From Perna viridis (Eukaryota): DNA of 64,000 bases. A program made the position numbers. How positions within the stretch are numbered: position 1 is the first letter of the stretch; each line of letters starts with the position of its first letter. Location of the stretch: NCBI GenBank assembly GCA_037379345.1, contig CM074518.1:23932001-23996000 (forward strand), in the 5' to 3' direction. Below, piece after piece: positions 30,001 to 33,000 of the stretch.

Positions 30001-33000
30001 GGGAATCCGATCCTGGAATCCTGAATTCATGGACGCGAATTCCCGTATTTCGAATTGAAAATAAACAAATTCCCATTTTATGGGTACCCTTCGTAATGGT
30101 AAAATTTAAAAGTGAAGCAAACATAGAATAGAACTAAACCATACAGGTTTCATATTGCTATTAGGTTCATCTGTAAAGACAAAGAATACAGTTAGAGAGC
30201 GTAATCAAGGGAACCAAAATTCTAGTGGAAATCAAAATATTGGGATCCAGGACAAAAGACCTTACAGAGAAAACAGACATACAAACGAAAGACCATAAAA
30301 TGACCAAACATAATATGTACAAAGCAAAAATGGTAAATTTGCAACTCCCGATCCAACAAAAACTTACCGTTAAAGTTAGCGTCCTCTGCTTTTATACAAC
30401 AAAAACAAATATTGTATATTTATTTATTTATATTTATTTAGACAGGTCAAGCACATATAATACAAACATAAAATACAGTATAGATATACACATAGACATA
30501 AACGTATACAGACCAAGACATTACATGAAAAAATAGCATTGATATGAAACCTTGAAACTTGTCAAGGATAGCCCATGAAGCCATATCTATAAAAAAGGCT
30601 GATTTCCCATGGGGTCCTTAAAAAGAAAAGAATACATGAAAAACACTTGAATCTACACACGAAGCATTTCACATTTCCTAAAATATTAACAGTTTATGTA
30701 AATACATTTTTTTATATAAAAAGTGACATTTTGTAGTTAAAAATAAATTAATTCATTTTCTTTTCTCATTTTGGTTCTTCCTTTCTAACAAGTTTAACTT
30801 CAGTTTTGAAAGAATTTGGGTTTGTTGTATTTTTAACAGTAAGTGGTAATTTGAACTTTAACAAGTAGGCTTCTGGAACAGGGTTCATATCACAACTCAT
30901 ACGTTATGCCAGAGCTTGCCGAAACTACGCAGACGTTTTGTATCGCGCTAGAACTCTAACAAATAGGCTTCTGGAACAGAGTTATGTTGCTACAAGATTG
31001 AAGTCATCACTACAGAAGTTTTATGGTCGTCATCATGAACTCGTGGATCGTAATGGTGTATCCATCAACACCATGAAAACTGATTTATTGAACGGGTCAT
31101 AGTTTTCCTTACCTCGTTTGTCTACCCCCGGACTTGACTTTTTATGAGCAACTCGGCAGGTGTTTCTAGAAAAGCAGAGAACGCTTACCCTACCGGTGCA
31201 TCTGGTCCATGCTCCCAGTTTTTAGTGGAGTCCGAGTTTCTCATTTTCTTTTGTTACTTTGTATATATGATTTTAGTTACTTTATGTTCTATGTTGTGTA
31301 TGTCTGTTTTCCATGTCTGGTCTTTGTCCCTTACATTCTTTTGATTACCGCTATAACCTTGGCTCCCTTGATTACTCTTTTGTATTAGTAGAACATGAAG
31401 AGCTATAACAAAATAACCGAACTGGTAAATTTATCAAGGTAAACCGAAAACAGATTATACAAATGGGATGTCAGTTTTTTCAAATGTCAAAAAGAAGGTT
31501 AAAAAACTTAATGGTAATTTGTTCCAAGCATGATATATGAAACTGTCTTTACTACATAACTTACAATTAGGTATACTATAATTTAAACTTGAAGCACCCC
31601 TTGTATTTCCTTGATTCATTTTGAAATTTTCACACAAATATTAAGTTGCAGTACAATGGTAGATGTTAAAAACAAGATCTAATTCTAAGTTGGTTCACTG
31701 TATCTGGCACCGAAAGCAAATTGACACTGTTATTTTGTTTTCTTCAAACTTTACGCTTGTTTTGGTCCAGGCCGTTAATAAACCTAAAAACTTTGTTTTG
31801 CAAGATTTGTTGCAAATCTTGGGCAATCCCACCCCTAAACTACTGTACCAAGGGGCACATGAATAGTCAAAATAGCATTGTATCAAAGAAGTTGGCAGTG
31901 TTATTCTATATCTATTTATTCTATATCTGGAATCAAGACATTTAGCATTCTTATATAACATTTCAATCTTCCATTGACTTTAGAAAAAATATTTGACACT
32001 AATGTTTCAAAGTTCAAATTATTATCAATATAAACTCCGATATATTTGACAATATCTGTAGTTTTAATTATATGATCATTACATTTAACAGAGAAAATTG
32101 TGATTTGTTTGATTTTTTTCTTTTGGGGCCAATTACCATACATTCGCTTTTACCTAAATGCAATGCTAATTTATGATCAATCACCCAGTCTGAACACTGC
32201 TCTAACACACTTCCTAATGTGTTTGATATTACATTTGGATCTATATGTTAATATTATTTTATTAAAGTGTCACCATCGTTTACATTACATATTACATATC
32301 AATAAATGAGCATAGTTATCGTAAAATATGCCAGCCGATAACAGGCGATAACGGCTTATGAGACACTACGAATCTAACAAACCACAGTAAGCAAGATGAA
32401 AAAAAACCAAATTATTGTCTTATGTTTGTATATACAAATAATCGATGTTTGTTTGAAAGTGGTGAGTAAACAGTACAGTCATGTAAGTTTTAATCTAATT
32501 TCTTTAAAATACAGTTATCAATGGCCAACATCTACATGACATAATTCCACTAGGCTATTTCTGTGTAGTGGGTTTCATCCTCATCTGCGTTTGCTACGTC
32601 CTTTAAATGATAAATAAAATGAGGGGCTTAAAATCTAACATGAATGGGCTGTACTGTACATTTTAGTATGACCTTCCTTTGATGATATTATAATTAAAGT
32701 ATTACCGACATCCTAGGCGGAAGAATTTTATGATATATGCATAGTACAGACAAAATCAAAGTATTACTAATTACTAGCTTCCAAAACTTGATATTGGTTT
32801 ATATTGTGTGATAGGCAATATACATTTGAGTCCTTTTCAGTTCCTTGTTTAAAGCCACTTTAACTGTAAAGAAAGAACTGACTAGTTGAACATGTACGTG
32901 ATCCCTTGCAAAATGGAAGATCCAATGTTATTTTTTTAAGAGGTTATTGGTTTTTTACTTTAATTGATGCCAGAAATTACACAAATAATAACTAATACAG

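What the first reader, a model, noticed from the sequence alone, without database searches (positions are those of the whole stretch)
30844..31521. Apparent 3' transduction by a Penelope-like (Naiad) element of sequence from the Ig cluster itself
Seen in sequence: the 10-bp TSD encloses the truncated Naiad (30854-31380) and also 31381-31511. That segment is homologous but not identical to 34374-34500 and 51622-51752, which lie just 3' of the YDEI exon. The empty site exists at 47547-47556. The 5' junction also duplicates an internal ~30-nt segment (aactttaacaagtaggcttctggaacaggg). Established: 3' transduction is well known for L1. Inference: a donor Naiad in another, unseen paralogue was read through and reinserted locally, or the RT switched template onto local nucleic acid.
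Basis: partly seen in the sequence, partly recalled or inferred. Interest (0 to 1): 0.7.

Follow-up and report, generated by a model that had tools for sequence, protein, structure and literature searches.

The report
Naiad retroelement insert carrying local flank
A truncated Penelope-like (Naiad) retroelement inserted in one step together with 131 bases of non-element DNA copied from elsewhere in the same gene cluster, a small and probably old example of a mobile element carrying host sequence along.

Summary
A 658-bp insert (30854-31511) lies between two exact copies of TGGTAATTTG. A paralogous unit has that 10-mer once (47547-47556). The insert has three parts:
- a 30-nt copy of an internal segment;
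- the last 497 bp of a Naiad-type Penelope-like element, ending at the family's usual 3' terminus;
- 131 bp that are not Naiad.

The 131 bp match only 34374-34500 and 51622-51752, which are equivalent positions in two tandem units. The same insertion, with the same 5' junction, sits in a third unit (63580-64000), so it is old.

I favour read-through from a Naiad donor that abutted a paralogue of the 131 bp, with reverse transcription starting downstream of the usual site. That is 3' transduction without a poly(A) tail (confidence about 0.5). Template switching is the main rival.

No donor is visible in the window, and no genome of this organism was available, so the decisive search could not be run. 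Why the carried piece comes from the same array also stays unexplained.

Transduction of host DNA by Penelope-like elements is already in print. This is at most a new variant, of modest interest.

The parts
30844..30853 (+). Left copy of the 10-bp target-site duplication TGGTAATTTG
   Evidence: Read; the repeat finder D3.
30854..30883 (+). 30-nt 5' extension, a direct copy of the internal segment 30952-30981. Its last bases (..GGG TT.AT) overlap the resumption point, so it looks like a template jump with about 4 nt of microhomology.
   Evidence: D2 (33 nt, 91%). One search shows other copies carry different sequence upstream of this point. The extension is identical in the unit-3 copy.
30884..31380 (+). 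5'-truncated Naiad: the last ~72 codons of the ORF (stop codon at 31100-31102) plus a ~278-nt 3' UTR, ending at the family's usual terminus ...GATTACTCTTT. The terminal TTT overlaps the start of the next part.
   Evidence: 91-93% to three younger copies; 30869-31099 aligns to residues 930-998 of a 1004-aa relative; that relative has GIY-YIG at residues 133-224.
31381..31511 (+). 131-bp non-Naiad 3' extension, in the same orientation as its two homologues. It ends ...TTAAAAAACTTAA with no added A-run.
   Evidence: No Rfam family, no tRNA and no stable fold.
31512..31521 (+). Right copy of the 10-bp target-site duplication
47547..47556 (+). Empty site in tandem unit 2 (the 10-mer occurs once)
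34374..34500 (+). Unit-1 homologue of the 131 bp. It lies 65-190 nt downstream (on the minus strand) of the stop codon of the putative last exon ...GYDEIPTLLR*.
51622..51752 (+). Unit-2 homologue of the 131 bp
63580..64000 (+). The same insertion in tandem unit 3: TSD at 63580-63589 with the identical 30-nt extension, then Naiad. It is cut off by the window end, so its 3' junction is not visible.
   Evidence: 395 matches, 16 mismatches, 6 gap columns against the unit-1 insert.
4953..7019 (-). Reference Naiad copy (about 2 kb, 5'-truncated, frameshifted; RT motif YIDDVL) used to define the family and its 3' terminus
26740..27327 (-). Unit-1-specific Naiad insertion. The site is empty in unit 3 (59352-59355) and unit 2. 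It defines the usual 3' terminus; TSD 0-2 bp.
50867..51319 (-). Unit-2-specific Naiad insertion. The site is empty in unit 1 (34071-34073). It defines the usual 3' terminus; TSD 0-2 bp.

Best explanation
One retrotransposition event by Naiad machinery put 658 bp into an AT-rich site and made a 10-bp duplication.

I infer the template was a + strand RNA that began inside a Naiad copy and ran past the element's usual 3' end into adjoining DNA. That donor copy would have sat directly upstream of a paralogue of the sequence now at 34374-34500 and 51622-51752.

The inferred steps are:
1. Reverse transcription started 131 nt downstream of the usual start site, at ...AAAAACUUAA, with no homology to the nicked target.
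2. It ran through the flank and the Naiad 3' UTR into the end of the ORF.
3. It stopped early (5' truncation).
4. It jumped back about 97 nt on the template at a TTAT microhomology and copied 30 more nt.
5. The cDNA was joined to the target with 1 nt of overlap.

What is shown: a single insert inside one TSD, an empty site, a usual Naiad terminus abutting non-Naiad DNA, and a carried piece paralogous to array sequence.

What is inferred: the read-through RNA, the donor locus and the order of the steps.
For: - One TSD and one empty site enclose both parts.
- The Naiad part ends exactly where three independent copies end. Its 3-nt TTT overlap with the next part is like the 1-2 nt overlaps at the two ordinary Naiad 3' junctions that have empty sites.
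- The 131 bp is absent after the other Naiad copies.
- There is no homology between the source's continuation (CTTTTGAAAC) and the target at the 3' junction. [quoted passage not shown] It uses RNA that extends 3' of the start site, and a minor product primes from the RNA's 3' end (PMC11167929, main text read).
- The piece is antisense to the host gene. The Ig exon is open on the minus strand in all 3 of 3 units, and the putative last exon is also on the minus strand. So ordinary host mRNA cannot be the template under simple target-primed synthesis, whereas a + strand element reading through can.
- Naiad-like sequence covers 5,541 of 64,000 bp in 14 intervals here, so a donor in another unit is plausible.
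- Timing is coherent. In the flanks, 1,255 ungapped columns give 55 unit-2-unique, 37 unit-3-unique and 32 unit-1-unique sites. This places the insertion just after unit 2 split off, when the units were nearly identical. The 131 bp has 8 own changes in 131 columns.
Against: - No donor is seen. Neither visible homologue has Naiad sequence abutting it.
- The old + strand copy about 760 bp upstream (33158-33520 and 50003-50409) is only 86.6-87.8% identical to the insert. Identity of about 93% or more would be expected for a donor younger than the unit split.
- There is no poly(A) tail and no canonical signal near the end of the carried piece.
- A retrotransposed RNA landing back in its own array is unexpected unless Naiad re-inserts locally or the 131 bp is a dispersed repeat. 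Neither could be tested.
- Site patterns do not name a donor unit.
- The second jump at the 5' end shows this event involved at least one template switch, which makes a switch at the Naiad/131-bp junction less far-fetched.
- This insert has a 10-bp TSD, against 0-2 bp for the two other datable Naiad insertions (n = 2).
Confidence: 0.5

Rival explanations
1. Template switch at initiation. The Naiad reverse transcriptase first copied 131 nt of an unrelated + strand nucleic acid from the array (an antisense transcript of the gene's 3' region, or local DNA). It then moved to its own RNA at the usual start site.
For: - The same insert carries a certain second discontinuity, the 30-nt back-jump with TTAT microhomology.
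- There is a 3-nt TTT overlap at the Naiad/131-bp junction.
- The source lies 3.5 kb away in the same unit, which a local-template model explains without a donor.
- Read-through followed by template jumps has been proposed for PLEs (PMC3846280, discussion passages).
Against: - It needs a + strand (antisense) RNA whose 5' end falls exactly at the junction, or a DNA template.
- For DNA-templated filler synthesis, priming microhomology would be expected at the 3' junction, and none is there.
- 131 nt is long for filler DNA. That statement is recalled, not tested.
- A 3-nt T-run overlap in a 32% GC sequence is weak evidence.
Confidence: 0.25
2. Two separate events. The 131 bp is itself a short mobile or dispersed repeat that inserted with the 10-bp TSD, and a Naiad later landed exactly at its 5' edge. 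A variant: a chimeric RNA was mobilised by another element's machinery, with the Naiad piece as the passenger.
For: - The two Naiad insertions with empty sites make TSDs of only 0-2 bp, so a second insertion would leave little trace.
- The 10-bp TSD is unlike those two.
- The repeat status of the 131 bp is untested.
Against: - Both events would have to hit the same nucleotide within the short branch between the unit-2 split and the unit-1/unit-3 split.
- The 131 bp has no extra copy in 64 kb outside the paralogous positions.
- I saw no TSD around the two homologues when reading.
- There is no tRNA, no Rfam match and no stable fold. Fold z-scores are +0.86 to +1.87 for the three + strand copies and the insert's minus strand.
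Confidence: 0.1
3. Assembly artefact: a false join between a Naiad copy and the array sequence.
For: PLE-rich tandem arrays are hard to assemble (PMC8557442, passage). An N gap lies 2 kb away.
Against: - The right-hand TSD follows the 131 bp exactly, and the flank then continues in register with unit 2.
- The 5' half of the same insertion is independently present in unit 3 at 96%.
- The 131 bp differs from both homologues at 8 sites of its own, so it is not a collapsed read of either.
Confidence: 0.03

Closest known systems
L1 3' transduction (Moran 1999, recalled; Goodier 2000 and Pickeral 2000 as cited in PMC6431247, passage)
   Same: The element's own 3' end is intact, followed by non-element flank. 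Both lie inside one TSD, and there is a matching empty site.
   Different: There is no poly(A) tail and no downstream polyadenylation signal. The enzyme is a GIY-YIG/telomerase-like PLE protein, which can initiate inside the RNA. No donor has been identified.
Host-DNA capture and transduction by Penelope-like elements in Adineta vaga (PMC3846280, sections 6 and 9 read; called transduction in PMC6431247)
   Same: The machinery is PLE, the carried DNA is non-element host DNA, the TSD is 8-10 bp, and the event is proven by an empty site.
   Different: In A. vaga the captured DNA lies between the element or pLTR and a downstream pLTR. Here nothing Naiad follows the 131 bp, so initiation must have been in the carried sequence itself. 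The clade is also different (Naiad, with N-terminal EN).
PLE 'tail' (30-40 bp optional extension at one end of an insertion; PMC8557442 passage; PMC11167929)
   Same: [quoted passage not shown]
   Different: The described tail is the stretch between two RT start sites at the 3' side of a pLTR. Here the 30 nt duplicates an ORF segment 98 nt downstream of a 5' truncation point, so it looks like a back-jump.
Template-switch chimeras of non-LTR elements (U6/L1-type; R2 end-to-end template jumping), recalled and not read here
   Same: Two unrelated templates are joined head-to-tail in one insert with little or no microhomology.
   Different: In those chimeras the foreign RNA is at the 5' side of the element. 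Here it is at the 3' side, which is copied first.

Membership tests
Naiad clade of Penelope-like elements | Single ORF with an N-terminal GIY-YIG endonuclease and a C-terminal RT | tested here: met
   The window copies are 5'-truncated, so this was tested through relatives. Five relatives were scanned. GIY-YIG is above Pfam's cut-off near the N-terminus in 3 (P0089 133-224, P0066 32-122, P0015 130-218), below cut-off in 1 (P0063) and absent in 1 (P0001). The RVT_1 matches lie further towards the C-terminus but are all below cut-off. The insert's ORF remnant aligns to residues 930-998 of 1004, and the longer copy to 815-996.
Naiad clade of Penelope-like elements | No canonical hammerhead ribozyme | tested here: met
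   0 Rfam matches in the whole window at gathering score. 0 matches at E <= 1 in 30700-31700. The criterion comes from a PMC8557442 passage.
Naiad clade of Penelope-like elements | Frequent 5' truncation with a shared 3' terminus | tested here: met
   Copies of about 497, 590, 453 and 2,070 bp share one 3' end. Full length is given as 3.4-4.4 kb.
Naiad clade of Penelope-like elements | CxC zinc-finger-like motif and IFD | not tested
   The N-terminal part is missing from every window copy, and the relatives were not examined for these motifs.
Naiad clade of Penelope-like elements | Optional 30-40 bp tail at one end | tested here: inconclusive
   A 30-nt extension is present, but it duplicates an internal ORF segment. 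It is absent from the two other insertions with defined 5' ends.
L1-type 3' transduction | Intact element 3' end plus non-element DNA inside one TSD, with an empty site | tested here: met
L1-type 3' transduction | Poly(A) tail, preceded by a polyadenylation signal, at the end of the transduced piece | tested here: not met
   The piece ends TTAAAAAACTTAA. The A-run is templated, since the homologues have CTAAAAATCT. I saw no AATAAA near the end when reading.
L1-type 3' transduction | A donor locus showing the element followed by the same flank | not testable with these tools
   No genome of this organism was on hand, and the collections on offer are prokaryotic, phage, plasmid or E. coli. Within the window no such locus exists.
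PLE capture of host DNA (A. vaga type) | Captured DNA framed by element terminal repeats (a pLTR downstream of the cargo) | tested here: not met
   There is no Naiad similarity in 31381-31521.
PLE capture of host DNA (A. vaga type) | TSD of about 8-10 bp, with an empty site proving transposition | tested here: met
   The TSD is 10 bp and the empty site is at 47547-47556.

The most novel reading that the evidence does not exclude
The 131 bp was not co-transcribed with a donor. The Naiad enzyme instead copied it from nucleic acid of the same array and then engaged its own RNA at the usual start site. Alternatively, it was co-transcribed, and Naiad RNPs preferentially re-insert within kilobases of their donor. 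Either way, Naiads would shuffle short pieces of a fast-evolving Ig-type receptor array locally, a cis bias not described for Penelope-like elements in the papers I searched.
Probability: 0.25. Interest if true: 0.5.

Novelty: new variant of a known kind. Interest (0 to 1): 0.3.

Why it matters
The transposition mechanism of Penelope-like elements is poorly known. The one biochemical study I read (PMC11167929) shows initiation inside the RNA without homology to the target. A genomic insert whose 3' end lies 131 nt beyond the usual terminus, with no poly(A) and no target homology, would be a natural trace of off-site initiation on a read-through RNA. It would also extend PLE-mediated transduction to the Naiad clade and to cargo with no downstream repeat.

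It is one old event with an unidentified donor, so it is an anecdote until a genome-wide survey shows how often it happens. I see no sign that the carried piece has a function.

Tried and rejected
- Part of the Naiad consensus: rejected, because three copies end at the same terminus and continue into unrelated flanks.
- Structured RNA or SINE-like module: 0 Rfam hits, 0 tRNAs, and fold z-scores of +0.86 to +1.87 for the three + strand copies and the insert's minus strand.
- Local old + strand Naiad (33158-33520 and 50003-50409) as donor, with later loss of the ~760-bp spacer: rejected on identity, 86.6-87.8% against 91.3-93.1% to the young copies.
- Naiad remnant next to the homologues: none found apart from the separate unit-2 insertion at 50867-51319.
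- Inverted-repeat or hairpin structure at the source: only short, imperfect arms. The nhmmer inverted hit has E 0.89.
- Naming the donor unit from shared sites: undecidable.
- A 9-bp TTTGTATAG present only in unit 2 beside the empty site resembles the start of the 131 bp. It is not above chance, since 30% of 3,000 random windows score as high.
- AATAAA on the minus strand exactly at the unit-1 boundary of the homologue, which would suggest the host mRNA 3' end acted as a primer: it is seen only in unit 1, so I treat it as coincidence.
- Ig exon searched alone for relatives to confirm the gene model: no hit at E <= 0.001 among 83 candidates. Pfam Ig matches are below the gathering cut-offs.
The prokaryotic genome collection was not used because it cannot hold this locus.
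- The N stretch 33521-33652 was left as it is.
- No paper supplements were opened. The Naiad consensus files of PMC8557442 might show whether any family carries this 131 bp.

Full report
**Observation**

The window contains TGGTAATTTG at 30844-30853 and again at 31512-31521. The paralogous site has it once, at 47547-47556, and the flanks are homologous on both sides. So 30854-31511 (658 bp) is an insertion with a 10-bp target-site duplication and a preserved empty site.

The window has one N stretch, 33521-33652, which I left alone. GC content is 31.8%.

**Setting**

A self-comparison shows a tandem array of units of about 16-17 kb. Unit 1 runs from about 21890 to 38250, unit 2 from about 38750 to 54330, and unit 3 from 54368 to the window end.

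Each unit has an open Ig-like exon on the minus strand, at 22185-22595, 39269-39680 and 54885-55295. The Pfam Ig_3 and I-set matches have E 7e-6 and 7e-5, both below the gathering cut-offs.

It has an acceptor-like tttcag followed by ..LKGYDEIPTLLR and a stop, near 34560-34605, with a unit-2 counterpart. That it is an exon is inference.

I searched the Ig exon alone and found no relatives.

**The element**

Naiad-like sequence covers 5,541 of 64,000 bp in 14 intervals. The longest copy (4953 to about 7019, minus strand) has frameshifted ORF pieces with an RT motif, YIDDVL. Its last 193 codons found 582 relatives at E <= 0.001 among 1,245 candidates.

I scanned five relatives against Pfam:
- three have GIY-YIG above the cut-off near the N-terminus;
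- one has it below the cut-off;
- one has none;
- their RVT_1 matches lie towards the C-terminus, all below the cut-off.

The window ORFs align to the very C-terminus of a 1004-aa relative, at residues 815-996 and 930-998. This is the permuted Naiad layout described in PMC8557442 (passages read). No hammerhead ribozyme or any other Rfam family was found, as that paper reports for Naiads.

**Anatomy of the insert**

1. 30854-30883 is a 30-nt direct copy of 30952-30981 (33 nt at 91%, including one base of the TSD). Other copies carry ordinary ORF sequence upstream of this point. The extension is therefore a back-jump of about 97 nt, at a TTAT overlap, after 5' truncation.
2. 30884-31380 holds the last ~72 codons, a stop codon at 31100-31102, and a ~278-nt 3' UTR ending ...GATTACTCTTT.
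3. 31381-31511 is 131 bp with no Naiad similarity.

Three other copies end at the same terminus and continue into unrelated DNA. For two of them the empty site is visible in another unit, with TSDs of only 0-2 bp and 1-2 nt of overlap at the 3' junction. So the 131 bp is not the Naiad 3' end, and the Naiad part of the insert is complete at its 3' side.

**The 131 bp**

Its only other matches are 51622-51752 (90.9%) and 34374-34495 (88.6%). All further BLAST hits have E >= 0.73. A profile built from the three copies finds nothing else better than E 0.11.

The two homologues sit at equivalent positions inside continuous unit-1/unit-2 homology (34071-34741 against 51319-52016). They lie 65-190 nt downstream of the putative stop codon on the minus strand. 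The insert's copy has the same + orientation as its homologues, so it is antisense to the host gene.

Homology begins at TTTG.ATTAG, overlapping the Naiad terminal TTT. It ends at CTTAA. The homologues continue CTTTTGAAAC, while the insert continues with the TSD. There is no added A-run.

The piece has no tRNA, no Rfam match and no stable fold. Fold z-scores are +0.86 to +1.87 for the three + strand copies and the insert's minus strand.

**Age**

Unit 3 carries the same TSD, the identical 30-nt extension and the Naiad part at 63580-64000, cut off by the window end. Compared with unit 1 it shows 395 matches, 16 mismatches and 6 gap columns.

In 1,255 ungapped columns of the upstream flank, 1,127 are invariant. 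55 are unique to unit 2, 37 to unit 3 and 32 to unit 1, and 4 differ in all three. This fits units 1 and 3 being sisters, with a short shared branch on which the insertion happened.

In 131 ungapped columns of the carried piece, 114 are invariant. 8 are unique to the insert, 6 to unit 1 and 2 to unit 2, 1 differs in all three, and 3 further columns have gaps. This does not identify a donor unit. At the time of insertion the units were still nearly alike.

**Donor**

Neither visible homologue has Naiad sequence abutting it. An old + strand copy (33158-33520 and 50003-50409) lies about 760 bp upstream of the homologues. It is 86.6-87.8% identical to the insert, while the two old copies are 93.3% identical to each other and the insert is 91.3-93.1% identical to the younger copies. 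It is therefore not the donor.

The unit-3 homologue and any further units lie outside the window.

**Mechanism**

I favour, at about 0.5, read-through from a Naiad that abutted a paralogue of the 131 bp, with reverse transcription starting at or near the end of the read-through RNA. Four points support this:
- the Naiad/flank junction looks like an ordinary Naiad 3' insertion junction;
- the 3' junction with the target has no homology, which matches the biochemistry of a purified PLE protein;
- that protein initiates inside RNA extending beyond the start site, and gives a minor product primed from the RNA's 3' end (PMC11167929, abstract and whole main text read);
- the carried piece is antisense to the host gene, which rules out ordinary host mRNA as template but fits a + strand element reading through.

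Three points count against it. No donor is seen. There is no poly(A) tail. And the carried piece comes from the same array as the target, which a diffusing RNP does not predict.

The main rival, at about 0.25, is a template switch at initiation. The certain back-jump at the 5' end of the same insert, and the nearness of the source, favour it. It needs an antisense RNA that ends exactly at the junction, or a DNA template, and there is no priming microhomology.

Two separate insertions at the same nucleotide (about 0.1) and an assembly artefact (about 0.03) are unlikely, for the reasons given under rival explanations.

**Comparison with what is known**

L1 3' transduction shares the anatomy but not the poly(A) hallmark.

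PLEs are already known to carry host DNA. In Adineta vaga this includes spacers between the ORF and the 3' pLTR, and cargo between pLTRs with 8-10 bp TSDs and an empty site. Read-through followed by template jumps was proposed there (PMC3846280: abstract, sections 6 and 9, and passages read). A review calls this transduction (PMC6431247, passage). In those cases a terminal repeat follows the cargo, and here none does.

My searches (listings only beyond the papers named) turned up no account of such a terminal extension for Naiads. These searches cover open-access text only, and I opened no supplements. A 2026 preprint on retrozymes (passages) did not bear on the question.

**Verdict**

The feature is real and correctly described, and it is a one-step composite insertion. 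Filing it as 3' transduction is reasonable but unproven. It is at most a new variant of a known kind and of modest interest.

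Noticed in passing
window 21890-23804 vs 54591-56500: Units 1 and 3 are 98.5% identical over 1.9 kb here, and their Ig exons are 99.5% identical. The rest of the units are about 90-92% alike. This suggests recent gene conversion or a mosaic duplication history in the array.
   Followed up: partly
window 26740-27327 (-) and 50867-51319 (-): Two unit-specific young Naiad insertions have empty sites in the sister units (59352-59355 and about 43420; 34071-34073). Their TSDs are only 0-2 bp, unlike the 10 bp of the insert studied.
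   Followed up: yes
window 50003-50409 (+) and 50867-51319 (-): A tail-to-tail inverted pair of Naiad copies about 460 bp apart in unit 2. It arose from two separate insertions, since unit 1 has only the older one. It therefore mimics the inverted arrangements described for PLEs without being one event.
   Followed up: partly
window 33521-33652: An N stretch sits right at the 3' end of the old + strand Naiad copy of unit 1, where unit 2 has about 50 bp. It was left unfilled, so the unit-1 structure there is not fully known.
   Followed up: no
window 4953-7019 (-): The longest Naiad copy in the window is about 2 kb and covers the RT from the early motifs to the stop codon. It is broken into at least three frames.
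   Followed up: partly
window 47564-47572 and 31612-31634: There are small indels beside the insertion site. A 9-bp TTTGTATAG is present only in unit 2, and 23 bp are present only in unit 1. The 9-mer's likeness to the start of the 131 bp is not above chance.
   Followed up: yes
window 34373-34378 (minus strand): AATAAA lies on the gene's strand exactly at the left edge of the unit-1 homologue of the 131 bp. It is absent in unit 2 and in the insert. It may mark the gene's polyadenylation signal, or be chance in AT-rich DNA.
   Followed up: partly
window 35372-36969 (+) and 31695-32149 (-): These ORFs look to me like non-LTR (LINE) reverse-transcriptase fragments. That is from recall only: Pfam gave no RT match for the three pieces scanned.
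   Followed up: partly
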